Below are positions 1,318 to 59,616 of a stretch of DNA of 64,000 nt, in pieces; the first letter of the stretch is position 1, and each line of letters opens with the position of its first letter. The notes below the pieces were generated by a model, which worked only from the letters and a program-made list of their open reading frames with translations, had not been told where the DNA came from and searched no databases. Source of the DNA: Thermoanaerobaculia bacterium (GTDB lineage: Bacteria; Acidobacteriota; Thermoanaerobaculia; Gp7-AA8); NCBI GenBank assembly GCA_035996815.1, contig DASYJF010000134.1, positions 34,096-98,095 on the forward strand. Direction: 5' to 3'. Made by a program: the position numbers and the translations under genes.

Positions 1318-2175
1318 CTACTGCGCGCGGGCGTCGCCGGCTTCGTATTTCCACGGCGTCATTGCATGCGCGCCTTCGGCGAATCTGGTGTCGACGAAGT
1401 CTTCGAACGGGATGGCGTGATCGAGGACTCCTGTCTGCACCATCAGGTTGACGATCGTTTCAAAGTCGGCGCGGCGCGGGGATAGCGGCTCGTATTTGAC
1501 GCGGTCGATTGGATTCGTGAGCGCCCAGCGGAGGAGCTTGGGATCCTGGTGGTAGTAGAAGCGGCCGACGAAATCGGCGGCGTGGAGGCGGTGGCGTTTG
1601 GCGCGTTCCTTTTCGTCGAGCCAGAGTCCCGATCGCGCGACGCCGTCGACCAGCGTCTGAATGGCTTCGGGATGTTTGTCGATGGCGTCCTGGCGGACGA
1701 CGAGGACGCAGGAGATGTAGTCCGGCCAGTACTGACGTGCGTGAAAGAGCACGCGGCCGAAACCGGCCATCTCGGCCTGCGAGGGATACGGCTCGCCCAT
1801 CGAGAAGGCGTCGATCGCGTTGGCGGCCAGGGCGCCGGCGACGTCGGGCGGGGCCATCTCTACCATCCGCACATCTTTTTTCGCATCCATCCCGTTCGCC
1901 TGCAGGGCGCGGAAGACGATGAGGCGTTCGTCGGAAAAGCGGCTGGGGATGGCGATGATGCGGCCGCGCAGATCGGATACACGATGCACAGGGCCGTCAC
2001 TGCGGACGACCACGGCCGAACCGTAGCGGTGGCCGAGGTAAACAATCTTCACCGGAACGCCCTGAGCCCGCAGGGCGATTGCCATCGGCGCGACCATGAA
2101 CGCCGCCTGCATCTTGTTGGACATCAGCGCTTCTTTGATTTCAGGGAAGCCCTGAAACATGCGCGGGATAAACAA
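1318..2175 (-). CDS. ABC transporter substrate-binding protein, NMT1/SsuA/TauA (NitT/TauT) family; 5' end disrupted or non-canonical
   Basis: Mature-domain similarity to aliphatic sulfonate/nitrate/taurine binding proteins. It is the last gene of the permease-ATPase-permease operon. The signal-peptide-like segment continues upstream to 2379 but is separated by an in-frame TGA (2230-2232) and has no ATG/GTG/TTG start. Confidence 0.7.
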   Translation of the reverse strand: MFIPRMFQGFPEIKEALMSNKMQAAFMVAPMAIALRAQGVPVKIVYLGHRYGSAVVVRSDGPVHRVSDLRGRIIAIPSRFSDERLIVFRALQANGMDAKKDVRMVEMAPPDVAGALAANAIDAFSMGEPYPSQAEMAGFGRVLFHARQYWPDYISCVLVVRQDAIDKHPEAIQTLVDGVARSGLWLDEKERAKRHRLHAADFVGRFYYHQDPKLLRWALTNPIDRVKYEPLSPRRADFETIVNLMVQTGVLDHAIPFEDFVDTRFAEGAHAMTPWKYEAGDARAQ

Positions 2176-2394
2176 ATGTCCGGACTGCGAGTAGGCGGAG
2201 ATGTAGTCGGTGACCGGGCAAGCGAGATGTCACGTTACGGGGATATACGCGACATTGAGCTTGCGGTCTGCTTCGGGCAACCGGTCGTTCATCAGCACCT
2301 GCCAGTTCACGTTGAGTGCAAAATGCGCGGCGGTGATGGCGAGTATCCAGGTGGTGATGGCGAGGGTTAGTTTTTTGATTTTGGGCCTCCTTTC

Positions 2395-2467
2395 TAGTGG
2401 TCAGGGCTACTAGTGGTCCGTGGTCAGTCTTTGTTTCTTGCCCACTGACCACTGGCCACTGACCACT
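2395..2467. repeat. GGTCAGT-heptamer inverted-repeat hairpin between the permease and SBP cistrons
   Basis: Arms agtggtcagggctactagtggtccgtggtcagt and ccactgaccactggccactgaccact flank a 13-nt loop. The left arm supplies the last about 18 codons of the permease ORF. Confidence 0.8.
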
Positions 2468-3252
2468 TGTTCAACAGCGCGAATCGCTGTATCCAGCAAC
2501 AATCCAATCAATCCAATCAACAGCATTCCGGCGACTACGAGGTCGTAGTGTTTGCCGGCGTTGCGGGCGTCGATGATGAGGTATCCGAGTCCGGAGTCGA
2601 CGGCGATCATTTCGGCGGCGACGAGGACGACCCAGGCGATGCCGAAGGCGAGGCGCAGGCCGACAATGATCCGCGGCAGTACGGCGGGGATCATGACGCG
2701 TCTCATCAATTGCGGCGTGGAGAGTCCGAAATTGCGGCCCGCCTGGAGGTACATCGGCGGAACGTTGCGGACGCCGTTCATGGCCGCGACGATGATCGGG
2801 AAGAGTGAGGCCAGAAAAATCAGGAAGATCGGCGCGGCATTGCTGACGCCGAACCAGATCACAGCTAGCGGCATCCAGGCCAGTGGCGAGATCGGTCGGA
2901 GCATCTGAATCAGCGGATTGATCGCTCTTGCCAGTGGCGCGCACCAGCCGAGGAGGAAGCCGAGTGGGATACCGATGACCATGGCGGCGGCGTAGCCTGC
3001 AAAGACGCGCGTGAGCGAGTCGGCGATGTAGTGCCAGAGTAGCGATTTTTCTGACAGAGTGGCGATGGCCTTGGCAACCGCTGTCGGCGTTGGAAAGATT
3101 TTTGTGCCTGACGCTCTTACGGCGATCGACCAGAGGACCAGGATGATCGCAGCCGTGGTGATCGGCAGCAAAAAGCGTTGAAACCACAGAGGCACAGAGG
3201 ACACAGAGATAGCTTTCTCTGTGCTCTCTGTGTCTCTGTGGTGAGTTCTCAT
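2410..3252 (-). CDS. ABC transporter permease (NitT/TauT family, SsuC-like)
   Basis: Multi-TM protein with the EAA-like motif region (MIAVDSGLGYLIIDA). Paralog of 3980-4735. Confidence 0.9.
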   Translation of the reverse strand: MRTHHRDTESTEKAISVSSVPLWFQRFLLPITTAAIILVLWSIAVRASGTKIFPTPTAVAKAIATLSEKSLLWHYIADSLTRVFAGYAAAMVIGIPLGFLLGWCAPLARAINPLIQMLRPISPLAWMPLAVIWFGVSNAAPIFLIFLASLFPIIVAAMNGVRNVPPMYLQAGRNFGLSTPQLMRRVMIPAVLPRIIVGLRLAFGIAWVVLVAAEMIAVDSGLGYLIIDARNAGKHYDLVVAGMLLIGLIGLLLDTAIRAVEQVVSGQWSVGKKQRLTTDH

Positions 3253-3983
3253 ACTTGGTGGGCGAGTCCAATCTCGCCAAAAATGAGATCGCGTAATTCG
3301 ATATACCGCCGCGATGAGAGATCGCGCGGATGAGGAATGTCGATATCCACCACGCGTCGAATTTTCCCCGGGCGCGCGCTCATGACTACAACGCGGTCAG
3401 CGAGCTGCACTGACTCCTCGATGTCGTGTGTGACGAAGAGGACGGTTTTGCGTTCGGCGCGCCAGATCCGCAACAGCTCGCTGCGCATCTGCAATCGCGT
3501 GATCGAATCGAGCGCGCCGAAGGGTTCGTCGAGGAAGAGGACGTCGGGATTCACGGCCAGCGCGCGCGCCACTTCCACGCGCTGCTTCATGCCGCCGGAG
3601 AGCTCGCGCGGATAGGACTTTTCGAATCCTTTGAGTCCGACGAGATCGATGTACTGCGCGACGCGAGTGCGGCGTTCATCTTCTGACATATCGAACAAAC
3701 CGAAGCCGATGTTGCCTTCGACGGTCAGCCAGGGAAAGACGCCGCGTTCCTGGAAGACGAAGATGCGGCGGCGGTCGGGGGCGGTGACCTGCTCGCCGTC
3801 GATCGTGACTGAGCCGCTGCCGGGCGCGAGGAATCCGCCGGCGATGTTGAGCAGCGTCGACTTGCCGCATCCGGACGGACCGACGATGCAGAGGAACTCC
3901 CCTTCTTCAGCGCCGAGGGTGATGTGCTGAAGGACTTCCATCGCGCCGAAGCGCATCGAGATGTCGCTGAACTGGACTTTCAC
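3249..3983 (-). CDS. ABC transporter ATP-binding protein (NitT/TauT family, SsuB-like)
   Basis: Walker A GPSGCGKST, ABC signature LSGGMKQR, Walker B LFLDEP. GTG start overlaps the TGA of the upstream permease. Confidence 0.9.
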   Translation of the reverse strand: MKVQFSDISMRFGAMEVLQHITLGAEEGEFLCIVGPSGCGKSTLLNIAGGFLAPGSGSVTIDGEQVTAPDRRRIFVFQERGVFPWLTVEGNIGFGLFDMSEDERRTRVAQYIDLVGLKGFEKSYPRELSGGMKQRVEVARALAVNPDVLFLDEPFGALDSITRLQMRSELLRIWRAERKTVLFVTHDIEESVQLADRVVVMSARPGKIRRVVDIDIPHPRDLSSRRYIELRDLIFGEIGLAHQV

Positions 3984-4735
3984 TCGGAGGCGTAACCCCA
4001 GCGGACGGAATCGAGCCGCTCCAGGCGGCGCATCAGGAGATCGAGCACGATGCCGACCAGACCGATGAGCACCATGCCCGCGATGACGAGGTCGTAGCGG
4101 TTGCCGGCGTTGCGGGCGTCGACGATCAGGAAGCCAAGACCGGAGTTGACGGCGATCATCTCCGCGGCCACGACCACGAGCCACGCCACGCCGAGCGTGA
4201 TGCGCATGGCCACGATGAGCTGCGGAAGGATGGCCGGGACCAGCACGTCGCGCATCCGCGCGCGCAACGGGATTCCGAAGTTGCGCGCGGCGGAGAGGTG
4301 GACCGGATCGATGTTGTGCATGGCGTTCATGGTCGCCACCGTCATTGGGAGCAGGCTGGCCAGGAAGATCAGGAAGATTGCGGAGATGTCGCCGACGCCG
4401 AACCAAAGGATGGCGATCGGAATCCACGCCAGCGGCGAGATCGGCCGGAGGATCTGCAGGATCGGATTCATGGCCATCTCGCCGAGCCTCATCATCCCCA
4501 GCATTAGTCCGAGCGGGACGGCGATGACGAGCGCGGCGAGGTATCCCCACGTGACGCGGAAGAGCGAGGCCACGACGTATTTGACGAGCAGTCCGCGCAC
4601 CGCCAGCTCGCCGATGCCTTGCGCGACAGCGATCGGTCCGGGAATGAGCGATGACGGGCGGAGCATCACCGCGATCTGCCATGCGGCGAGGGCGGCGACG
4701 ATGCCGGTAAAGGGAAGCAGACGCGAGCGCGACAC
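3980..4735 (-). CDS. ABC transporter permease (NitT/TauT family), second paralog
   Basis: About 55% identical to the 2410-3252 product. GTG start. Confidence 0.9.
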   Translation of the reverse strand: MSRSRLLPFTGIVAALAAWQIAVMLRPSSLIPGPIAVAQGIGELAVRGLLVKYVVASLFRVTWGYLAALVIAVPLGLMLGMMRLGEMAMNPILQILRPISPLAWIPIAILWFGVGDISAIFLIFLASLLPMTVATMNAMHNIDPVHLSAARNFGIPLRARMRDVLVPAILPQLIVAMRITLGVAWLVVVAAEMIAVNSGLGFLIVDARNAGNRYDLVIAGMVLIGLVGIVLDLLMRRLERLDSVRWGYASE

Positions 4736-4755: not shown

Positions 4756-4860
4756 GCAGTGGAATGGGGATTAGTGGTCAGTGGTCAGTGGTCAGTGGTC
4801 AGTGGTCAGTGGTCCAATGTTCTCTCCTGATCGACTAATCCACTACTCTACTAATCTACC
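4756..4860. repeat. composite heptamer element: 5 tandem GGTCAGT (4776-4815) followed by an ACTAATC-type arm (4816-4860) in the divergent permease/msrA intergenic region
   Basis: Perfect 5x tandem heptamer. The right arm shares TCCTGATCGACTAATC with the element upstream of cysS (12274-12322). Confidence 0.85.
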
Positions 4861-4866
4861 AACGAA

Positions 4867-5454
4867 ATGAAACGCATCCTTCTCCTCCTCGCCGCGCTTT
4901 TGCTTCTCTCCGCCGCACCCCCGCTGCGCCGCGCCGTCGCTACGTTTGCGGGCGGATGCTTCTGGTGCATGGAGCCGCCGTTCGAGCGGTTGAAGGGCGT
5001 CGTCTCGGTCACGTCCGGCTACACCGGTGGGCGTGTCGACAAACCTACCTACGAGCAGGTTTCGGACGGATATACGGGACATCGGGAGTCCGTAGAGATC
5101 GTCTATGACCCAGCGCAGATTTCGTATCAGCAGCTGCTCGACGTCTTCTGGCACAACGTAGATCCGCTCGATAACTCAGGTCAGTTTTGTGATCACGGCG
5201 GGCAGTATCGGACGGCGATCTTCGTCCACGACGCCGAGCAGAAGCGGCTGGCCGAGGCGTCGAAACAGGCGGTGGGCGTGCGGTTTCATCACGACGTCTT
5301 CACCGACATCCTTCCCGCAGCGCGCTTTTATCGTGCCGAGGAGTATCATCAGGACTATTACAAAAAGAATCCGCTGCGGTACAAGTTCTACCGCTTCAAC
5401 TGCGGACGCGATCAGCGGCTGAAAGAGTTGTGGGGCGCGGCGCCGGCGCATTGA
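4867..5454 (+). CDS. msrA: peptide-methionine (S)-S-oxide reductase MsrA, with signal peptide
   Basis: GCFWC active-site motif and an MsrA-typical C-terminal region. Hydrophobic N-terminal signal. Confidence 0.9.
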   Translation: MKRILLLLAALLLLSAAPPLRRAVATFAGGCFWCMEPPFERLKGVVSVTSGYTGGRVDKPTYEQVSDGYTGHRESVEIVYDPAQISYQQLLDVFWHNVDPLDNSGQFCDHGGQYRTAIFVHDAEQKRLAEASKQAVGVRFHHDVFTDILPAARFYRAEEYHQDYYKKNPLRYKFYRFNCGRDQRLKELWGAAPAH

Positions 5455-6857: not shown

Positions 6858-8636
6858 ATGGCAAGAGAAAAGAATGGGAGTGGGGTGTGGGGTGTGGGGA
6901 GTGGGAGCATCCTTTTTGCTTTTTCTCCGACACCCCACTCCCTACTCCCCACTCCCCTCCTCGGCATCGCGTTCTTCGTCCTCGCACTGGCCTGCCGGTT
7001 CCTCAACGCGCCGTACGCGTTCGAGGGAGGCAGGCCGCGCATCGCGCCGGTGGACGAGCTGTATCACTGGAAGCGGATGGCGTACTCGGCGGCGCACTTT
7101 CCGCGCGTCCTGGAGCTCGATCGCGACCGCGGAGTCCGCGGCGCGTTTTGTCCATGGCCGCCGTTGTATGACGTGGCTGGCGGCGGCGCGGCGCGATTGC
7201 TCGGCGGCACAACCTCGGGCGAAGTCCTCGCGCGCATCATCTGGTTCCCGCCGATCCTCTTCGCGCTCTTCACCGGGATCGCTGTCTTCATCCTGGCCCG
7301 ACGGAGCGGGACGATGGTGGCGACGATTACCGGCATCGCGCTGGCGACGTCGCCATTTCTCGTGACTACGTCATGGATCGGCAGCATCGATCACCACTAC
7401 CTCGAGCCAGTGCTGACGTTCGCCATCGTCGGAGCGACGTGTCTCGGCATTCGCGCGGTGACACGGCGAGAAAAAATCCGCGCCGGCATTCTCCTCGGCA
7501 TCGCGATTACGGCGGCGATGTTCGTCCAGACCGCACTCCTGATCGCCGCCGCGCTCGCCTTCGCGGTGCTGTTCTTTGCGACGGACGGCATCGCAGCCGC
7601 TTGCGGCTTCAGCATCGCCGCGGTCGCGGTCGCGATCTACCGCCTCACCCGCGATTCCGGCTTTCCCGACAATCAATGGTTCCTCGGCTGGACCCACGCG
7701 ACGCTCTTCGCCGCCGCCGCAATTGCGTGCGCGATCGTCGCCACCCGACGTAGCGCCGGCGCGTGGCGGCGCGTCGTCGCGCTCCTCGCCGGTGGATTGA
7801 TCGCAATCGCGATCCCGACCGTCCGCGCATCGCTCTTCACCGGCTCGCACTTTCTCGGCGGCGACCGATGGCTGCGCACAATTCAGGAGTTCCAGCCGCT
7901 CTTGCGCGCGCGCGGCGACGATCTCTTATCCGACGCCGTCGGCCTCTCCGGCGGCGCGATCCTGGTCTGGTTCCTCGCAATCCGCGCAATCAAAACGCGC
8001 GACAGCGTCCGGCTCACGTTAGCCATCTTCGCGATCACCTACTTCGCGCTGACGATCACCAGCCGCCGCTTCTGGATCGTAGCCATCCCGCTGCTCGCCC
8101 TCGCCGGCGCGATGTACGTTCCGCTGATCGCGCGCAAGCGCCTGGCGATCGTCGCCGCACTTGTCATCGCGCTCCCTCCCCCGCTGCAACTTGCGGGATG
8201 GCTGATGACGCCGCAGTCGATCCCGCCGAATCAGCAGCAGTGGATTCGCGCAACGTCGTTCATCCGCACTCTCCCGCCCGGACGCGTCCTCGGACCGTGG
8301 TCGATGGGGCATTCCATCGACGTCGAAGGAAACCATCCCGTCATCCTCGACAACTTCGGCACGATGCCGGACGCCGCGACGTTCGAACGCGCGCAACAGG
8401 TGTTGCTGTCAACCGATGAGGCGACTCTCGCGCGCTACTGCGACGCGGCAAACGTCCGCTACCTGATCCTCGAACAGCCGCGCTTCGGAATCGCGTCCGC
8501 GAACGCCATCCTCGGCACACGACGAGCAGCGGAGTCGACATGGTGGTGGCGGGTCTGGCGGAGGGAGAATCGGGGAATGTTTCGCCTGATCTGGAGCGAG
8601 CCCGAGCTGAGAATTTACGAGCGACGCGGCCTTTGA
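6858..8636 (+). CDS. GT-C fold membrane glycosyltransferase-like protein (ArnT/PMT/STT3-like); start uncertain (6858 or downstream)
   Basis: About 12 predicted TM helices. A DE motif (APVDELYHW) sits in the first extracytoplasmic loop, followed by a C-terminal soluble domain. The ORF 5' end runs through the G-rich heptad repeat. Confidence 0.55.
   Translation: MAREKNGSGVWGVGSGSILFAFSPTPHSLLPTPLLGIAFFVLALACRFLNAPYAFEGGRPRIAPVDELYHWKRMAYSAAHFPRVLELDRDRGVRGAFCPWPPLYDVAGGGAARLLGGTTSGEVLARIIWFPPILFALFTGIAVFILARRSGTMVATITGIALATSPFLVTTSWIGSIDHHYLEPVLTFAIVGATCLGIRAVTRREKIRAGILLGIAITAAMFVQTALLIAAALAFAVLFFATDGIAAACGFSIAAVAVAIYRLTRDSGFPDNQWFLGWTHATLFAAAAIACAIVATRRSAGAWRRVVALLAGGLIAIAIPTVRASLFTGSHFLGGDRWLRTIQEFQPLLRARGDDLLSDAVGLSGGAILVWFLAIRAIKTRDSVRLTLAIFAITYFALTITSRRFWIVAIPLLALAGAMYVPLIARKRLAIVAALVIALPPPLQLAGWLMTPQSIPPNQQQWIRATSFIRTLPPGRVLGPWSMGHSIDVEGNHPVILDNFGTMPDAATFERAQQVLLSTDEATLARYCDAANVRYLILEQPRFGIASANAILGTRRAAESTWWWRVWRRENRGMFRLIWSEPELRIYERRGL
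6886..6958. repeat. G-rich heptad inverted-repeat element (GGGGAGT/GGGGTGT x4, 25-nt spacer, CCCCACT-type arm)
   Basis: Same family as 1-120. Lies between divergent protease and GT-C genes. Confidence 0.8.
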
Positions 8637-12273: not shown

Positions 12274-12322
12274 ATCCTGATCGACTAATCTACTCATCTA
12301 CTGATCCACTGATTTACTATCC
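12274..12322. repeat. ACTAATC-type heptad arm immediately upstream of the cysS ATG
   Basis: tcctgatcgactaatctactcatctactgatccactgatttactatcc; shares a 16-nt core with 4823-4860 upstream of msrA. Confidence 0.75.
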
Positions 12323-20180: not shown

Positions 20181-22316
20181 TCATCGATAGAACTTCCCAT
20201 CACGTTCCGCGAGTCTGCGCAGCGCGGCGGTGGCGAGGAAGCGTTTGCCGTGCTTCTGGAACAGATCGTCGAGCCGCGCCAGGATGTATGGCAAACCGAG
20301 TTTGTCGGCGTAGCGGAGCAGACCTCCGCGGAATGGGGGGAAGCCGGTGCCCATGATCATGGCCAGGTCGAGCTCCGCGGGCGAGGCCACGATCTTTTCG
20401 TCGAGGATCATCGCGGCTTCGTTCACCATCGCAAAGATCATCCGCTCCACGACCGCGGTCGCGTCGGCGGCATGTGTCGAACGGATGTTCAGGAGTTTGT
20501 AGACCGAGGGATCGGGACCCTGGCGCTTGCCGCCTTCGTAGAGATAGAGACCCTTGCCGTTTTTCTTGCCGTAGCGGCCGTCGGCGTAAAGCGTCTCGAC
20601 GACGTGCGACGGTTCCATGCGATCGCCGAATGCGCCGCCGAGGATCTTGGCGACTTTCGCGGCGACGTCGATGCCGACTTCGTCGAGCAACGCCATCGGT
20701 CCCATCGGCATCCCGAAGTCGACCATCGCTTTGTCGAGCGATTCAATCGAATTACCTCCTTCGAGCAGGAAGCCGGACTCGTTCATGTACGGGCCGAGAA
20801 TGCGATTGACGACGAACCCGGGCCCGTCGTTGCAATACACGACAGTCTTGCCGAGCTTGCGCGCGAAGTTGGCGACGGTGACCATCGCCACGTCGGAAGT
20901 CTTCGCGCCGCGGATGACTTCGACGAGCGGCATGCGGTCGACGGGATTGAAAAAGTGCATTCCGGCCACGTTCTCAGGACGTTTGGCCTGCGCGGCGATG
21001 TCGGTGATGGGAATCGTCGAGGTGTTGGTGGCGAAGATGGCGTTCGGACCGGCGATCGCTTCGAATTCGGCGAGCACCTGACGCTTGACGTCGACATTTT
21101 CGACGACGGCTTCGACGACGACCTGGCAACGATCGAACCCGCTCCAGTCGGTGGTGGAGGTGATGCGCGCCAGTTTTCGCTGCATCTCCCCTCGGGTCAT
21201 GCGGCGCCGATCGACTTTCTTCTTCCAGATTTTCGCGGCCGCTTTCATGCCGCCGGCGATCGCTTTCCAGTTGATGTCGCGCATGCGAACCGAGGCGTCC
21301 GTCTTATCGGCGATGAGCTGGGCGATGCCGCCGCCCATGATGCCGGCACCGAGCGCTCCGGCGTCGCGGACTTCGATCGGCGTCGCCGCTATGCGCTCCT
21401 TCTTCGAATCTTCCATCATGAAGAAGAGGCGGATGAGGTTCTGCGCAACTTCGCACTTCGGACCGACGATGAGCGGAACGACCGCTTCGACCTCGCGCGC
21501 GAGGCCGCGCTCGACGCCAGCGGACATGCCGTACTCCATGACGTCGATGGCGGTCAGCGGCGCGGGATAGTGGCCGTGCGTCTGCGCCATGACCGCTTTG
21601 CGTGCTTTGCCGAAGATGACGCGGCGCGCGAGCGGGTTGCCTTCGATGTAGAACTTGGTGCGGCCACTGCCGCGGCGTTTTGGTTTCGCCGAAAACTGTT
21701 TGGCGATATCGAGCAGGATCGCGGGGGGGACGACTTCGTCGACGAGTCTCATTCGTTTGGCTCTCTTCCCGTCGAGCGTTTTGCCGTTGAGGATGATGTC
21801 GAGCGCGGCCGGAAGGCCGATGAGGCGCGGCAACTTCGTTGTGCCGCCCCAGGCCGGGAAGATACCGAGTTTCGTCTCCGGCAATCCGATCTGCGCTTTC
21901 GGGCTGTCGGACATGACGCGGTAGTCGCAGGTGATGGCCAGCTCGCAGCCGCCGCCGAGCGCGGCGCCGTTGATGGCGGCGATGGTGACCTGCGGCAGCT
22001 TCGAGAAACGGTGAATGGTCTGCTGGCCGAAGCGGGTGTACTCCGCCGCCTGGTCTGCAGATGTTGCCTTAGAGAACTCGGTGACGTCCGCGCCGGCGAT
22101 GAAGATCGACGGCTTGCCCGAGGCGATGATGACGCGCTTGATATCGCGATCGTTTTCGAGCTCGTCGACCACGGCGGCGAACTCGGACATGACGGCGGTC
22201 GAGAATTTATTGACCTTTTCGCCGGGGAGATCGAACCAGACGATGGCGAGATCTTCGTCGCGTTCGATGCGGAACGCGGATCCGATTCGGGATGGAGTTT
22301 CCGCCACGCTGGTCAT
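20181..22316 (-). CDS. fatty acid oxidation complex alpha subunit (enoyl-CoA hydratase / 3-hydroxyacyl-CoA dehydrogenase, FadB/FadJ-like)
   Basis: N-terminal crotonase fold, central NAD-binding GAGIMGGGIA, C-terminal 3HCDH domains. Confidence 0.9.
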   Translation of the reverse strand: MTSVAETPSRIGSAFRIERDEDLAIVWFDLPGEKVNKFSTAVMSEFAAVVDELENDRDIKRVIIASGKPSIFIAGADVTEFSKATSADQAAEYTRFGQQTIHRFSKLPQVTIAAINGAALGGGCELAITCDYRVMSDSPKAQIGLPETKLGIFPAWGGTTKLPRLIGLPAALDIILNGKTLDGKRAKRMRLVDEVVPPAILLDIAKQFSAKPKRRGSGRTKFYIEGNPLARRVIFGKARKAVMAQTHGHYPAPLTAIDVMEYGMSAGVERGLAREVEAVVPLIVGPKCEVAQNLIRLFFMMEDSKKERIAATPIEVRDAGALGAGIMGGGIAQLIADKTDASVRMRDINWKAIAGGMKAAAKIWKKKVDRRRMTRGEMQRKLARITSTTDWSGFDRCQVVVEAVVENVDVKRQVLAEFEAIAGPNAIFATNTSTIPITDIAAQAKRPENVAGMHFFNPVDRMPLVEVIRGAKTSDVAMVTVANFARKLGKTVVYCNDGPGFVVNRILGPYMNESGFLLEGGNSIESLDKAMVDFGMPMGPMALLDEVGIDVAAKVAKILGGAFGDRMEPSHVVETLYADGRYGKKNGKGLYLYEGGKRQGPDPSVYKLLNIRSTHAADATAVVERMIFAMVNEAAMILDEKIVASPAELDLAMIMGTGFPPFRGGLLRYADKLGLPYILARLDDLFQKHGKRFLATAALRRLAERDGKFYR

Positions 22317-22319
22317 TGA

Positions 22320-24143
22320 TCAGGCCCGTTTTCCTTCGCGCTCATCGGCGTCTTCGTCGATGTACATGAGGTCGATGCTGTCTTTGTATTTCTTGTCGAT
22401 CATCTTCCGCTTCACCTTCAGCGAGGGCGTGATCTCGTCCTCCTCGATGCTGAAGTCGCGCGGCAGCAGAGCGAAGCGGCGGATCTTTTCCTGCCGGTCG
22501 AGGTTCGTGTTGAAGCGGTCGATCTCGGTCTGGTAAATCTGCCGGACTTTCTCGTTGCCGATCAATTCGTCGCGATTCGCAAACTGCACGCCCATGGCCG
22601 ATGCATCGCGCTCGAGCTTGTCGAAATTCGGGACGAGCAGCGCCACTAAGTACTTGCGGCGATCGCCGATGAGCACCGGCGTGCCTATGTACGGCGAGCT
22701 TTTCAGGAGCGCTTCCAGCGGCTGCGGGGCGATGTTCTTGCCGTAGGCGTTGATGATGATGTCTTTCTTGCGGTCGGTGATCTTGAGGAAGCCGTCCTTG
22801 TCGATCTCGCCGATGTCGCCGGTGTGGAACCAGCCGTCGTCGTCGATGGCCTGCTTCGTGGCGTCGTCGTTGTTCCAATACCCCTTCATGATGTGCGGGC
22901 CTCTGCTCAAAATCTCGCCATCTTCGGCGATCCGCACTTCGACGCCCGGGATGATCCGGCCAACGGTTCCGACGCGGCGCCATTCGGGAGTGTTGACGGC
23001 GATGACGGGCGAGGTTTCGGTGAGGCCGTAGCCTTCGTAGATGTCGAGCCCCGCGCCGATGAAGAACGCGGCCAGTTCTGCGGACAACGGCGCGCCGCCG
23101 GAGAGGACCATTTTCACGCGACCGCCGAGACGCGCCAGGATTTTGCCGAAGACGAGTTTGTCGGCGATGAACGATTTCATGCTCAGGCCGAGCGGCATCG
23201 GCTTGCGCGACACGCGATACGGCAGCCGCTGTTCGGCGATGCCGAGCGCCCATTTGAAGATTTTCTGCTTCGAGGCCGGCTGCACGGCCACGCTGTCGAG
23301 AATCGTGGTGCGCATCTTCTCGAAGAGACGCGGTACGGCCGCGAAGAGATCGGGGCGTATTTCGCGAAGGTTGTCGCCCACTTTCACGACACTCTCGGCG
23401 TACGCGATCGTGCAGCCGCGATAGAAGTAGGTGTAATCGCCCATCCGCTCGAGGATGTGCGAGAGCGGCAGGATGGAGAGGCCAACCATCCCCTTGCCGA
23501 TCGGAAGCACATTCGCCGTTGCAAGGACGTTGCTGGTGATGTTGCCGTGCGTGAGCATGGCGCCCTTCGGATTGCCGGTCGTCCCGGAGGTGTAGACGAG
23601 CGTGGCCAGATCATCCGGCTTCGGTTTGGCGCGCGTTTCGTCGAACCAGGTCTTAGCGGCGGCGTCATCGCCTTTGCGGCCGCTCTCGACGACGTCCGCG
23701 AAACTGAGGATGCCAGGTGGCAGCTTCGGCGGCAGATCGCAGACGATGACGTTGTGAATGTGCGGGCAGTGATCGCGAATCCCCGCAACCTTCTTCATCT
23801 GCTCTTCGTTCGAGCAGATCACGGCCACGGCGCCGGAGTCGTTGAGGATGTACTCGATCTGCCATCCGAGGAGCGTCGGGTAGACGGGAACAGTGACGGC
23901 GGCGCTGGCGAGGATGGCGAAATCGGCCATCGCCCATTCCGGCCGGTTCTCGGAGAGGATGGCCACACGGTCGCCGGCTTTGAGTCCGAGGAGGCGCAGG
24001 CCGGTGGCGAGGTAACGGACGGTGTCGCGGAATTCGTCGACGCTGGTGTCGACCCACTTGCCATCCCGTTTGTATTTCAGCGCCGCTGGACGATCCAGCG
24101 AGCAGGTGACGGTGTAGATGTCGTTGAGAGTCTTGATCTCCAT
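22320..24143 (-). CDS. long-chain fatty acid--CoA ligase (AMP-binding)
   Basis: AMP-binding motif YTSGTTGNPKG and GYGLTET; FACS-like length. Confidence 0.9.
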   Translation of the reverse strand: MEIKTLNDIYTVTCSLDRPAALKYKRDGKWVDTSVDEFRDTVRYLATGLRLLGLKAGDRVAILSENRPEWAMADFAILASAAVTVPVYPTLLGWQIEYILNDSGAVAVICSNEEQMKKVAGIRDHCPHIHNVIVCDLPPKLPPGILSFADVVESGRKGDDAAAKTWFDETRAKPKPDDLATLVYTSGTTGNPKGAMLTHGNITSNVLATANVLPIGKGMVGLSILPLSHILERMGDYTYFYRGCTIAYAESVVKVGDNLREIRPDLFAAVPRLFEKMRTTILDSVAVQPASKQKIFKWALGIAEQRLPYRVSRKPMPLGLSMKSFIADKLVFGKILARLGGRVKMVLSGGAPLSAELAAFFIGAGLDIYEGYGLTETSPVIAVNTPEWRRVGTVGRIIPGVEVRIAEDGEILSRGPHIMKGYWNNDDATKQAIDDDGWFHTGDIGEIDKDGFLKITDRKKDIIINAYGKNIAPQPLEALLKSSPYIGTPVLIGDRRKYLVALLVPNFDKLERDASAMGVQFANRDELIGNEKVRQIYQTEIDRFNTNLDRQEKIRRFALLPRDFSIEEDEITPSLKVKRKMIDKKYKDSIDLMYIDEDADEREGKRA

Positions 24144-24194
24144 CCGCGCAGCCCCCTGTGTTGTGTGGATTAGGCGCGGATCATACTTGATGCG

Positions 24195-44631: not shown

Positions 44632-46185
44632 TCAGACGCTGGCGACAAGGTCGCGCACTCTGCCGCGGATGTCCTCCGGCTCGGCGATAAGGCGGTCGCG
44701 CTCGGCGGCATCGAGGAGGGAACGAAGGGCGCGATACGCGTCGCCGCGATCGGACGTTTCGCGAAGAATGGCGATGGGATCGAGGCCGCGGATCGAGAAC
44801 CATTCGTCGACAGCGATGCGCGTTTCTGCCGGCGTCTCGCGCACGAGCGCGCGTGTGTCGCGCCTGATGGCTCGCGCGCGTGAAATGCGAGGCCAGGCGA
44901 ATGCGAGCAGGATGAGGAGCGCCGCCGCGATGCCGATGAATGGAAGCGACTGGCGGGCGGCTTCGACGGGCGCGTTGCCCGGCGCGGGCGGTGGGTGCGA
45001 CTGCAGCAACGCCGCGTCGGCCGCCTGAACCATCAGCGCTCGCTGTTCGCAACGAAGCTCGCGCCGCACACCGGCCGGCGTCAAGATCTGCGCCGTCAGC
45101 GGCGGGATGACGAACATGCCGGTGCTGTTTGGGAAAATCAGAAACCGCCAGCGCCGCGTCATCACCGCTTCATCGCGCCTCTGCACGCTCACCGCCCCCT
45201 CGGCGATTTGCACGCTTCCGTCGATCGCTTGCGCAAACGATGGCGGCGGCGCGGCGCGAAGGTTCGCGGCGCCGGTCATGATCACGCCGACTGCCACCGG
45301 TCCGCCGTTCTTCTGCACCGGCGCCTCGCATTGCAGCGAGATGTCGCCGACCGCGGCGACGGGCGGCCCGGCCGGAATCGGACGCGCGTCGATTGGTAGC
45401 GGCGACGAGCGGCGCTGCACATCGACGACGCTTCCCTCGAACAGACGCAACGGATTGCCGAAGCCGAGCGGCTTCATGATCTGCGCCTCGATCGCGAGCG
45501 GATCGACGGTCAGCGTGCCGTTGCGCAGTGGAAAAAGCGCCACGCGGCGGATGATCAGCTTCTGCAGCGCCACACCGCCGAGGAAAACCTGCTGCGGCGT
45601 CTGACCGCGAGTGTCCAGTTCCTCGACCCAGAAGTCGGCCAGCTTCGGCATCCGCGCGATCCCGTGTTGCTGCACGTTCGCGGCGTTGTAAATCGTCCAC
45701 GTGACGATGACCTGTTCGCCGGTGAAGACGCTGCTCTTGTCCGCCTCGGCGACGACGAGAATCGGATCGCGTCCGGTGGCTATGAGCTCGTGAAGGATGC
45801 GGATCGGATCATTCGTCCCGGCGGCGAGATCGGGAAGCACCTGAATCGACAGCGGCGCGAGCGTCTCGACGTCTCCGTCCGCACCGTGCAACGTCAACGG
45901 TCCGACGAGGGCTGCGCCGGGATGGATCGGACGCGCGACGTAGCGCAGCACTTTGCGCCGCGACGACTGCCCGTTGATCCACGAGAACTCCGACGACACG
46001 GACGGCGATCCGTCGATGACGAGGTTCTGCAGTGGGAGCTGGAGATTTTCCGCCGAGGCGAAGGCGTCCGTGAGGGTGAGCGTGATGGTGAGGGCGTCGT
46101 CGGTGGAGAGGGTTCGTTTATCGACCTGAAGGTCGCTTGCCATCGCGGGTAGCGCGATTATCAAAAGGAGAAAGGCAATGTTGAA
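44632..46185 (-). CDS. BatD-like protein (Bat operon); 5' end uncertain, ORF continues into a heptamer repeat
   Basis: Last gene of the Bat cluster; BatD-like length with a C-terminal TM. Confidence 0.65.
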   Translation of the reverse strand, partial: FNIAFLLLIIALPAMASDLQVDKRTLSTDDALTITLTLTDAFASAENLQLPLQNLVIDGSPSVSSEFSWINGQSSRRKVLRYVARPIHPGAALVGPLTLHGADGDVETLAPLSIQVLPDLAAGTNDPIRILHELIATGRDPILVVAEADKSSVFTGEQVIVTWTIYNAANVQQHGIARMPKLADFWVEELDTRGQTPQQVFLGGVALQKLIIRRVALFPLRNGTLTVDPLAIEAQIMKPLGFGNPLRLFEGSVVDVQRRSSPLPIDARPIPAGPPVAAVGDISLQCEAPVQKNGGPVAVGVIMTGAANLRAAPPPSFAQAIDGSVQIAEGAVSVQRRDEAVMTRRWRFLIFPNSTGMFVIPPLTAQILTPAGVRRELRCEQRALMVQAADAALLQSHPPPAPGNAPVEAARQSLPFIGIAAALLILLAFAWPRISRARAIRRDTRALVRETPAETRIAVDEWFSIRGLDPIAILRETSDRGDAYRALRSLLDAAERDRLIAEPEDIRGRVRDLVASV

Positions 46186-46288
46186 TGTTGAATGTTGAAT
46201 GTTCAATGTTGAATGAGGAGGCCGAGGGCGTTTCCGCCGTCCCCTCCATCCAACATTCACCATTGAACATTCAACATTCAACATTCGC
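46177..46288. repeat. AATGTTG-heptamer inverted-repeat hairpin between batC and batD
   Basis: (aatgttg)x5 ... loop ... (caacatt)x5 with minor variants. Confidence 0.85.
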
Positions 46289-47194: not shown

Positions 47195-47515
47195 GACGGC
47201 GGGTTACACGGTGCGGGACGTCGCGTCCCACGGTGCGGACGTCGCGTCCCACGGTGTGTGACGTCGCGTCCCGCGGTGCGGGCGTCGCGTCCCACGGTGT
47301 GTGACGTCGCGTCCCGCGGTGCGGACGTCGCGTCCCGCGGTGTGTGACGTCGCGTCCCGCGGTGCGGGCGTCGCGTCCCGCGGTGTGTGACGGCGCGTCC
47401 CACGGTGCGGACGTCGCGTCCCGCGGTGCGGACGTCGCGTCCCGCGGTGTGTGACGTCGCATCCCGCGGTGCGGACGTCGCGTCCCACCGTGCGGAGGCC
47501 ACGTCACACGGTGCA
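47195..47515. repeat. tandem array of 13-14 direct repeats of 21/22 bp, each containing the palindrome GGGACGTCGCGTCCC; two alternating subtypes give a 43-bp higher-order period
   Basis: Units cggtgcgg(g)acgtcgcgtccc and cggtgtgtgacgtcgcgtccc alternate. No spacers, so not CRISPR. Confidence 0.9.
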
Positions 47516-56288: not shown

Positions 56289-56336
56289 AGCAGTGGATTA
56301 GTCGATTAGTAGATTAGTCGATTAGGGTGAACCGCT
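56289..56336. repeat. GATTAGT-family heptad arm directly after the stop of the ligase-like gene
   Basis: gcagtggattagtcgattagtagattagtcgattagg; near-identical to 5455-5490 after msrA. Confidence 0.8.
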
Positions 56337-59552: not shown

Positions 59553-59616
59553 CAGTGGATTAGTGGATTAGTAGATTCGTGCTTGGCCGCGCCCGAATCT
59601 ACTAATTCACTGCTTC
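59553..59616. repeat. GATTAGT-family heptad hairpin between convergent ubiB-like and lptE genes
   Basis: Arms cagtggattagtggattagtagattcg and cgaatctactaattcactg flank a 15-nt GC loop. Confidence 0.8.

What the first reader, a model, noticed from the sequence alone, without database searches (positions are those of the whole stretch)
1318..2379. Substrate-binding gene of the ABC importer has an in-frame TGA and no canonical start codon
The SBP reading frame is intact for 285 codons (1318-2175) and continues upstream with a plausible signal peptide (IKKLTLAITTWILAITAAHFALNV...LNVAYIPVT). It is interrupted by an in-frame TGA at 2230-2232, which aligns with the position of the conserved Asp of the IPxTDH motif of NMT1/SsuA proteins. 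Upstream, the only in-frame codon with good Shine-Dalgarno spacing (GGAGG-6nt) is ATC at 2379; there is no ATG/GTG/TTG before the preceding stop. The gene is therefore a young pseudogene with two lesions but no frameshifts, a sequencing or assembly error, or a gene relying on stop-codon recoding plus a non-canonical AUC start. The rest of the operon is intact.
Basis: seen in the sequence. Interest (0 to 1): 0.6.

Follow-up and report, generated by a model that had tools for sequence, protein, structure and literature searches.

The report
Selenocysteine-type ABC transporter binding protein gene
The apparent stop codon inside this transporter gene is conserved in over a hundred related soil-bacterial sequences, at a position that is cysteine in the remaining homologues. 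It therefore most likely encodes selenocysteine in a previously unlisted selenoprotein family, and in this lineage the gene also starts at a rare AUC codon.

Summary
On the minus strand, a 353-codon NMT1_2/NitT-TauT substrate-binding gene (2379→1318) has an in-frame TGA at 2232-2230. Its only Shine-Dalgarno-served start is ATC at 2379-2377.

It is neither a pseudogene nor an assembly error:
- Across 123 orthologous sequences from Thermoanaerobaculia/Acidobacteriota MAGs and soil metagenomes, this codon is TGA in 104 and TGC/TGT in 19.
- The flanks (IPVT-U/C-HLACPVTDY) are conserved, and pN/pS is about 0.1-0.4 on both sides.
- Sec and Cys forms have switched repeatedly; one pair is 96% identical.

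The ATC is invariant in 13 diverged relatives (88-93% nt identity). It sits exactly where the other orthologues have ATG, GTG or TTG, and the 23 codons after it are under purifying selection.

In the wider family this position is Asp, His or Cys. Together with His51, His117 and Cys222/223 it looks like a metal site, as in the Zn-bound structure 3UN6.

Best reading: a new selenoprotein family, a membrane-anchored binding protein with Sec as a probable metal ligand.

Caveats:
- No canonical SECIS hairpin was found. The downstream RNA is less structured than synonymous controls.
- The Sec machinery could not be checked in the source genome.

The parts
1318..2379 (-). Full substrate-binding protein gene: 353 codons including UGA at codon 50, then stop TAG at 1320-1318.
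   Evidence: Translation. Pfam NMT1_2 at 7e-31. Full-length Cys homologues at 70-77% identity cover 100% of it.
2377..2379 (-). ATC, the inferred non-canonical start codon.
   Evidence: It aligns with the ATG/GTG/TTG start of the orthologues. It is invariant in 13 relatives at 88-93% nt identity.
2386..2390 (-). Shine-Dalgarno GGAGG (within GAAAGGAGG), 6 nt upstream of the ATC.
   Evidence: Sequence. The same SD at the same spacing precedes the start codon in the orthologues.
2401..2403 (-). In-frame TGA that closes the frame upstream. No canonical start lies between it and the ATC.
2311..2376 (-). Codons 2-23: a KK motif plus a hydrophobic helix, read as an N-terminal membrane anchor rather than a cleaved signal peptide.
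   Evidence: AF2 helix at residues 2-23 with pLDDT above 90. W11, H19 and N23 are invariant in 64 homologues. pN/pS is 0.30 in the ATC clade.
2230..2232 (-). UGA codon 50, inferred to encode selenocysteine.
   Evidence: TGA in 104 of 123 orthologues and TGC/TGT in 19. Cys in all full-length database homologues. Repeated Sec/Cys switches.
2218..2220 (-). Cys54 codon (TGC), completing the U-x3-C motif.
   Evidence: Invariant in homologues. TGC in 98 of 98 TGA-type sequences.
2191..2220 (-). Codons +4 to +13 after the UGA: a C-rich, G-poor stretch with suppressed synonymous change. It is a possible recoding signal but not a hairpin.
   Evidence: Mean synonymous entropy is 0.42 against a gene mean of 0.98, ranking 8th of 208 windows. 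It is less structured than synonymous recodings.
2029..2031 (-). His117 codon in the GHR motif, a probable metal ligand.
   Evidence: His in 27 of 32 distant homologues, with R118 invariant. It aligns with the GHH motif of Zn-bound 3UN6.
1708..1710 (-). Cys224 codon (Cys223 in homologue numbering), a probable metal ligand.
   Evidence: Cys in 24 of 32 distant homologues. It aligns with the CC motif of 3UN6.
2410..3252 (-). Permease 2 (BPD_transp_1) of the same operon.
3249..3983 (-). ATPase (ABC_tran) of the same operon.
3980..4735 (-). Permease 1 (BPD_transp_1), the first gene of the operon.
   Evidence: The order permease-ATPase-permease-SBP is conserved in nearly every locus with enough flank, in both Sec and Cys forms.

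Best explanation
The gene is intact. It encodes the substrate-binding subunit of a four-gene NitT/TauT-type ABC importer (permease, ATPase, permease, SBP). The UGA at codon 50 is read as selenocysteine, giving the motif IPVT-U-HLAC at the loop after the first beta-strand. In the wider family that position holds Asp, His or Cys. Together with His51, His117 and Cys222/223 it most likely forms a metal centre in the binding cleft, so Sec would be a metal ligand. An N-terminal transmembrane helix would hold the protein on the periplasmic face of the membrane. In this lineage translation begins at AUC, served by a perfect Shine-Dalgarno sequence, which probably sets a low initiation rate.

Shown here:
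- conservation of the TGA and the ATC across many assemblies;
- the Cys alignment;
- purifying selection on both sides of the TGA;
- operon conservation.

Inferred, not shown:
- that Sec, rather than another residue, is inserted;
- the metal-ligand role;
- the topology;
- the low initiation rate.
For: 1. Codon 50 is TGA in 104 of 123 orthologues and TGC/TGT in 19. Among species-representative genomes it is TGA in 34 of 42.
2. All full-length database homologues have Cys there, within an invariant IPVTCHL[AT]CPVTD.
3. The closest database proteins are all called truncated, at 280 or 297 aa, starting after the TGA. This includes an NCBI annotation.
4. pN/pS upstream of the TGA is 0.15-0.40, against 0.10-0.27 downstream.
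5. Sec and Cys forms are interspersed. L108 (TGA) and L034 (TGT) are 96% identical, and L041/L084 (TGT) nest inside a TGA clade.
6. TGA is the ordinary stop codon of 37 of 70 coding-like ORFs in the window, so there is no genome-wide reassignment.
7. Wobble positions of codons +4 to +13 are nearly frozen in TGA forms only.
8. The ATC is invariant in 13 sequences at 88-93% nt identity, with pS about 0.2 around it. It lies at the position of the orthologues' start codon, and codons 2-24 have pN/pS 0.30. A second, independent ATC start occurs in L068.
9. AUC initiates with Met at roughly 0.02-3% of AUG in E. coli (bioRxiv 10.1101/063800).
10. The closest structure is Zn-bound 3UN6. Related SBPs are modelled with a metal held by two Cys and one or two His (PMC13592312).
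11. Position 50 is D, C or H in distant homologues, and the C50-type sequences have Ser in place of Cys at position 222.
Against: - No canonical SECIS hairpin was found. RNAalifold gives no consensus helix in the 75 nt after the UGA, and mean base-pair probabilities do not exceed 0.4.
- The window's own sequence folds no better than shuffles (z = +0.91).
- TGA-type sequences are on average less structured than synonymous recodings (mean z +0.9).
- No selA, selD or tRNA-Sec was found in the window or in any fetched flank. The rest of the genome could not be searched.
- The AF2 model is of low confidence (pLDDT 54-66) around the U/CxxxC loop, and no coordinates were available, so the clustering of the proposed ligands was not measured.
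- The substrate is unknown.
Confidence: 0.72

Rival explanations
1. The UGA is decoded without the SelB/SECIS route. Possible mechanisms are near-cognate read-through in the leaky UGA-C context, or a UGA-reading suppressor or allo-type tRNA. The inserted residue would then be Cys, Trp or Ser rather than Sec.
For: - No SECIS hairpin was found, and the downstream RNA is selected to be unstructured.
- The base after the UGA is C in all TGA forms.
- Allo-tRNAs have been reported in Acidobacteria. This is from memory (Mukai et al. 2017) and was not checked here.
Against: - A TGA held for this long at a Cys position is the standard Sec signature. If plain Cys were the product, TGC/TGT would be a one-step, more efficient solution, and it does arise repeatedly.
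- Trp or Ser would be a poor fit at a D/H/C ligand position.
- No suppressor tRNA was found in the fetched DNA.
Confidence: 0.17
2. The gene is a young pseudogene with two lesions: a nonsense mutation and loss of the start codon.
For: Only the single-sequence view: an in-frame stop and no canonical start.
Against: - Both features are conserved across lineages that differ at 7-12% of nucleotides, and the TGA much further.
- pN/pS is far below 1 on both sides.
- There are no frameshifts, and the operon partners are intact in nearly every locus with enough flank.
Confidence: 0.02
3. The TGA or the ATC is a sequencing or assembly error.
For: None beyond prior plausibility.
Against: The same TGA occurs in 104 independent sequences and the same ATC in 13, from different studies and assemblers.
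Confidence: 0.01
4. The locus makes two products or a shortened one. Either translation stops at the UGA and a separate soluble protein starts downstream, as gene callers annotate, or initiation is at GTG codon 24 rather than AUC.
For: Gene callers produce 280- and 297-aa products. GTG codon 24 is conserved in the ATC clade.
Against: - No start codon or SD is conserved after the UGA. The Met at 'PRMFQ' is Leu in 41 of 98 TGA-type sequences.
- Residues 41-49 form strand beta-1 of the fold.
- Codons 2-24 are under purifying selection and carry invariant W11, H19 and N23.
- The SD sits in front of the ATC, not in front of codon 24.
Confidence: 0.06

Closest known systems
SaoB and SaoX, the selenoprotein substrate-binding proteins of the SAO (selenocysteine-assisted organometallic) system (Haft & Gwadz; bioRxiv 10.1101/2022.07.06.499078)
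   Same: These are ABC-transporter substrate-binding proteins in which Sec or Cys lines the binding cleft and is thought to touch a metal. SaoX has the same NMT1/SsuA-like fold (it resembles 4NMY and 2X26). Databases also truncate these proteins at the TGA.
   Different: - SaoX matches at only 58 bits against a cut-off of 300.
- The Sec sits at a different place in the fold: here U-x3-C after strand 1, against CU/CC motifs elsewhere.
- There is no SAO nine-gene neighbourhood; this is a stand-alone four-gene operon.
- The hosts are soil Thermoanaerobaculia/Acidobacteriota rather than strict anaerobes such as Clostridia.
- This protein has a TM anchor rather than a lipoprotein signal.
3UN6-type NitT/TauT binding proteins: the Zn-bound S. 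aureus SBP and the SBPs encoded next to clade B CO dehydrogenases (PMC6344411, PMC13592312)
   Same: 3UN6 is the best sequence and fold match (E 1e-25; TM 0.71/0.85). The GH(R/H), EP and (C)C motifs are shared. A metal held by Cys and His in the cleft has been proposed for this group.
   Different: 3UN6 has His where this protein has Sec/Cys, and it lacks Cys54. None of these relatives is reported to contain Sec. No CODH gene lies nearby. The substrate is unknown for all of them.
SsuA/TauA sulfonate-binding proteins and NrtA/CmpA
   Same: Same Pfam families (NMT1_2, NMT1), the same fold and the same operon type.
   Different: The protein scores below the SsuA_fam cut-off (118 against 163.5 bits). 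Identity is only 17-22%. The Cys/His constellation is not a feature I know of in those anion binders; that last point is from general knowledge and was not tested.
Natural non-canonical starts such as AUU of E. coli infC and pcnB
   Same: A near-cognate AUN start behind a good SD, conserved in evolution, and expected to give low, IF3-sensitive initiation (for the E. coli data).
   Different: The codon here is AUC, not AUU. It is confined to one clade of an otherwise ATG/TTG/GTG-starting gene family. No autoregulatory logic is known.

Membership tests
Bacterial selenoprotein (UGA read as Sec) | In-frame UGA aligned with Cys in homologues | tested here: met
   Cys in all full-length homologues. 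The split is 104 TGA against 19 TGC/TGT.
Bacterial selenoprotein (UGA read as Sec) | Coding conservation on both sides of the UGA | tested here: met
   pN/pS is 0.15-0.40 upstream and 0.10-0.27 downstream.
Bacterial selenoprotein (UGA read as Sec) | SECIS hairpin immediately 3' of the UGA, with its apical loop about 16-37 nt away | tested here: not met
   There is no consensus helix. The window's z-score is +0.91 and the mean z against synonymous recodings is +0.9. Only a sequence-level constraint at +12 to +42 was found.
Bacterial selenoprotein (UGA read as Sec) | selA, selB, selD and tRNA-Sec present in the same genome | not testable with these tools
   None was found in the 64-kb window or in about 700 kb of fetched flanks. 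The phylum does contain Sec users (Occallatibacter).
Bacterial selenoprotein (UGA read as Sec) | Selenium actually present in the protein | not testable with these tools
   This needs 75Se labelling or mass spectrometry.
NMT1_2 / NitT-TauT ABC substrate-binding protein | Pfam NMT1_2 match above the gathering score | tested here: met
   108 bits against a cut-off of 24.7.
NMT1_2 / NitT-TauT ABC substrate-binding protein | Encoded with cognate permease and ATPase genes | tested here: met
   The order permease-ATPase-permease-SBP is conserved in nearly every locus with enough flank.
SsuA family (TIGR01728) | Score at or above the curated cut-off | tested here: not met
   118.4 bits against 163.5.
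SaoX (NF040735) | Score at or above the curated cut-off, and an SAO gene neighbourhood | tested here: not met
   58.5 bits against 300. No Sao genes are nearby.
3UN6-like metal-site SBP | Fold and sequence similarity to 3UN6 | tested here: met
   E 1.2e-25. Foldseek E 1e-23, TM 0.71/0.85.
3UN6-like metal-site SBP | Cys/His ligands clustered around a metal in the cleft | tested here: inconclusive
   The ligand-like residues are conserved and co-vary. No model coordinates were available, and the loop has low pLDDT.

The most novel reading that the evidence does not exclude
This is a previously unlisted selenoprotein family in which Sec is a ligand of an intrinsic metal centre of an ABC-importer binding protein. 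Its UGA would be recoded without a canonical SECIS hairpin. Instead the 3' sequence is kept fixed, C-rich and unstructured, which would point to a new kind of bacterial recoding signal or a SECIS-independent decoding route. In one clade the gene is additionally tuned by a conserved AUC start codon.
Probability: 0.18. Interest if true: 0.85.

Novelty: new member of a known kind. Interest (0 to 1): 0.6.

Why it matters
- **Annotation.** If confirmed, this adds a selenoprotein family that current annotation misses. NCBI and JGI both call it truncated, NCBIfam 20.0 has no model for it, and it is absent from the 2026 review table of prokaryotic selenoproteins.
- **Reach of Sec-containing transporter proteins.** It extends Sec-containing transporter binding proteins beyond the anaerobe SAO system, into abundant soil and rhizosphere Acidobacteriota.
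- **A handle on an uncharacterised group.** The 3UN6-like, metal-site binding proteins have no known substrate. Here the Sec/Cys/His/Asp alternation marks the ligand position.
- **Two translation questions.**
  - How is this UGA recoded, given that no SECIS hairpin can be found?
  - Why does one clade keep an AUC start codon behind a perfect Shine-Dalgarno sequence?

Tried and rejected
- **SECIS search.** All of the following gave no conserved or stable hairpin in the canonical window:
  - single-sequence MFE;
  - RNAalifold on several windows;
  - an all-pairs conserved-helix scan;
  - averaged base-pair probabilities;
  - synonymous-recoding z-scores.
- **Helix spanning the UGA.** A helix between the upstream GUNAC and the downstream GGUNACC fails in about a quarter of TGA sequences (GTG/GTG) and also occurs in Cys forms. 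Rejected.
- **Hairpin at +122 to +163.** RNAalifold suggested it, but the structures vary between sequences, there is no covariation, and it is too far from the UGA.
- **UUUCAGGG/CCCUGAAA hairpin at +75 to +93.** It is present in Cys forms too and follows from the FQGFPE codons.
- **Rfam.** Nothing at the gathering threshold in the window, and nothing relevant at E ≤ 10 around the gene.
- **tRNA-Sec or suppressor tRNA.** None in the window or loci.
- **selA/selD.** This is weak evidence, because the queries came from memory and the target DNA is small.
- **A second in-frame-TGA gene at 20181-24194.** It turned out to be two adjacent genes, an acyl-CoA synthetase and a FadB/J-like protein.
- **The downstream motif elsewhere.** TGCCCGGTNACCGACTAC does not recur in the window.
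- **Literature.** Searches for a Sec-containing NMT1/SsuA/NitT-TauT binding protein found nothing.

Full report
**Observation**

On the minus strand the frame that ends at TAG 1320-1318 is open back to 2400.
- It holds one in-frame TGA, at 2232-2230.
- The canonical ORF listed mechanically is 1318-2175 (285 aa, TTG).
- Upstream of the TGA lie 49 sense codons. They begin with ATC at 2379-2377, which sits 6 nt after GGAGG (2390-2386).
- The frame is closed by TGA at 2403-2401. None of the seven codons between that stop and the ATC is ATG, GTG or TTG.
- The first canonical in-frame start is GTG at codon 24 (2310-2308).

Every coordinate in the finding is correct.

**What the protein is**

With X at the stop, the 353-residue product matches Pfam NMT1_2 (108 bits, cut-off 24.7), plus NMT1 and Phosphonate-bd. 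In NCBIfam it falls below the SsuA_fam cut-off (118 against 163.5) and far below SaoX (58 against 300).

It is the last gene of a four-gene operon: permease 4735-3980, ATPase 3983-3249, permease 3252-2410, then the binding protein. This order is conserved in nearly every orthologous locus that has enough flank, in both TGA and Cys forms.

**The TGA is conserved and aligns with Cys**

A protein search returned two kinds of hit:
- Full-length proteins of about 352 aa at 70-77% identity.
- Closer proteins at 83-99% identity that were all called at 280 or 297 aa, starting just after the position of the TGA.

All full-length proteins have Cys at the TGA position, inside an invariant IPVTCHL[AT]CPVTD.

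I then fetched the DNA of 43 loci from species-representative genomes, 80 metagenome loci and one further contig. They come from Thermoanaerobaculia, other Acidobacteriota and Bryobacteraceae MAGs, and from soil and rhizosphere metagenomes.
- The codon is TGA in 104 sequences, TGC in 13 and TGT in 6.
- Among the species representatives it is TGA in 34 of 42.
- pN/pS for the codons upstream of the TGA is 0.20-0.40 across all TGA sequences and 0.15 in the closest clade. Downstream it is 0.18 and 0.10.
- Cys forms are not one clade. L034 (TGT) is 96% identical in protein to L108 (TGA), and L041/L084 (TGT) nest inside TGA sequences.
- TGA ends 37 of the 70 coding-like ORFs in the window, so the code is not reassigned.

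These results exclude a pseudogene and an assembly error. They give the standard comparative signature of a Sec/Cys family.

**The start codon**

In the orthologues the start codon lies at the position of the window's ATC, or three codons further upstream in an 'MxD' variant. An AAAGGAGG-type SD precedes it by 4-9 nt. Counts over 119 assessable sequences:

| Start codon | Sequences |
|---|---|
| ATG | 76 |
| ATC | 14 |
| TTG | 12 |
| GTG | 12 |
| CTG | 1 |
| Not assigned by the heuristic | 4 |

- The ATC form is found in the window and 12 relatives: L001, L003, L004, L044-46, L048, L049, L052, L087, L088 and L124.
- These differ from each other at 7-12% of nucleotides in the gene, yet the ATC is invariant.
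- The 23 codons between the ATC and the first canonical start show pN/pS 0.30. They encode residues that are invariant across the family: W11, H19 and N23.
- Sister sequences in the same clade use ATG (L047, L050, L095) or TTG (L002, L051).
- L068 carries an independent ATC at the MxD-type start.

In E. coli reporters, AUC initiates with Met at about 1-2% of AUG, with a range of 0.02-3% (bioRxiv 10.1101/063800).

I therefore read AUC as the real start in this clade, probably setting a low initiation rate. That last step is inference.

**SECIS: tested and not found**

- The 63 nt from the UGA fold to -8.4 kcal/mol, no better than dinucleotide shuffles (z = +0.91).
- RNAalifold finds no consensus helix in the 75 nt after the UGA in 33-35 distinct species-representative TGA sequences, nor near the UGA in 98 sequences over +0 to +200.
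- Mean base-pair probabilities never exceed 0.4.
- A scan for conserved helices finds nothing in the canonical window.
- Against sequences recoded synonymously with the gene's own codon usage, the native 60 nt after the UGA are less structured in TGA forms (mean z +0.9; 2% below -1). In Cys forms they are neutral (z about 0.1).

There is a sequence-level constraint instead.
- In TGA forms the wobble positions of codons +4 to +13 are nearly frozen (UGC CCG GUN ACC GAC UAC AUC UCC GCC UAC).
- TGC, CCG and GAC are each 98 of 98.
- Mean synonymous entropy is 0.42 against a gene mean of 0.98, and against 0.94 for the same window in Cys forms.
- The stretch is C-rich and G-poor, and uses ACC and GCC where the rest of the gene mostly uses ACG and GCG.

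This could be an unusual SelB-binding element or some other recoding signal. I could not decide which. It is the main weakness of the Sec reading.

Sec machinery genes and tRNA-Sec are absent from the window and from all fetched flanks. The rest of the genomes was out of reach. The phylum is known to include Sec users.

**Likely role of the residue**

- *Model.* An AF2 model of the Cys homologue P0001 has mean pLDDT 79. It shows an N-terminal helix at residues 2-23 (pLDDT above 90) followed by a class II binding-protein fold. The loop carrying CxxxC is modelled with low confidence, 54-66.
- *Closest solved structure.* The best match by sequence profile (E 1e-25) and by fold (TM 0.71/0.85) is 3UN6, a S. 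aureus binding protein crystallised with zinc. Next come SsuA, TauA, the CmpC/NrtC regulatory domains, Thi5 and DszB.
- *Alignment to 3UN6.* U/C50 faces a His (LPITHS), His117 faces the GHH motif and Cys223 faces a CC pair.
- *Literature on this group.* Two papers on clade B CO dehydrogenases describe neighbouring NitT/TauT binding proteins as 3UN6-like. One reports an AF3 model with a metal held by two Cys and one or two His (PMC6344411, PMC13592312).
- *Wider family.* In 32 diverse relatives at 26-47% identity:

| Position | Residues |
|---|---|
| 50 | Asp 16, Cys 7, His 7, Ser 2 |
| 51 | His 23 |
| 117 | His 27 |
| 118 | Arg, invariant |
| 222 | Cys 16 |
| 223 | Cys 24 |

Six of the seven sequences with Cys at position 50 have Ser at 222. 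In other words, a Cys appears to move from one place to another.

This pattern is what a metal site would give, and it places the Sec among the ligands. Whether the metal is the cargo or a cofactor for binding a small ligand is unknown.

**Comparison with what is known**

- Sec-containing ABC binding proteins have been described: SaoB, rare SaoX, and a BtuF-like protein.
- The 2026 review table of prokaryotic selenoproteins lists no NMT1/SsuA/NitT-TauT member.
- NCBIfam 20.0 has no model for this family, and NCBI annotates a member as a 297-aa truncated protein.
- Five further literature searches found nothing (and for BSepDB).

I therefore file it as a new member, a new family, of a known kind. 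It has two unusual translation features: no recognisable SECIS hairpin, and a conserved AUC start in one clade.

**Verdict**

| Question | Result |
|---|---|
| Observation | Confirmed |
| Pseudogene or assembly error | Rejected |
| Recoding plus AUC start | Supported by comparative evidence |
| Sec as the inserted residue | About 0.7, held down by the missing SECIS and the untested Sec machinery |

Noticed in passing
window 2050-2139 (codons +31 to +60 after the UGA): A second, even stronger cold spot of synonymous change occurs in TGA-type sequences (entropy 0.37-0.55 against a gene mean of 0.98, and 0.8-1.5 in Cys forms). RNAalifold suggested a hairpin at +122 to +163, but the structures are inconsistent and show no covariation. 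Unexplained.
   Followed up: partly
window 4773-4814, 2442-2467, 46177-46215, 46247-46286, 6876-6957, 12277-12318, 56292-56325, 59554-59581; also the spacers upstream of the SBP gene in L004, L005, L051, L060, L087: Short tandem repeats of 7-8 nt sit in intergenic spacers, for example AGTGGTC x6. The repeat unit differs between lineages at the same orthologous spacer (TTTCTGG, CAGCAAC, GACAGCC, TCTCTGA, GACACCC). They recall the cyanobacterial STRR heptamers; that comparison is from memory.
   Followed up: no
window 47207-47513: An intergenic array of about 14 units of roughly 21.5 nt (TRF periods 43 and 64, 88-89% matches). Each unit holds a small GGACG-TCG-CGTCC hairpin.
   Followed up: no
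L065 (start region about 2500) and L068 (about 130): Other non-canonical starts occur in the same gene family. L065 has CTG behind AAAGGAGGTGATCCCG. L068 has an independent ATC at the 'MxD'-type start.
   Followed up: partly
L108 versus L034: Two Bryobacteraceae-like orthologues are 96% identical in protein but differ by TGA versus TGT at the Sec/Cys codon. This natural pair could be used to test which genomic features travel with the TGA.
   Followed up: partly
window 4867-5454 (+): msrA (peptide methionine sulfoxide reductase) is transcribed divergently from the transporter operon. This neighbourhood is kept only in the closer clade, in L001-L003, L006-L008, L010 and L011.
   Followed up: partly
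window 2137-2155: There is a near-perfect 8-9 bp hairpin, UUUCAGGG-CUU-CCCUGAAA, over the FQGFPE codons. Its two registers co-vary (TTT with CCT, TTC with CCG). It is also present in Cys forms, so it is probably a by-product of the peptide sequence.
   Followed up: partly
window 20181-24194 (-): Two coding ORFs lie in the same frame, separated only by a TGA. They proved to be adjacent genes, a long-chain acyl-CoA synthetase and a FadB/FadJ-like enzyme, not a second selenoprotein.
   Followed up: yes
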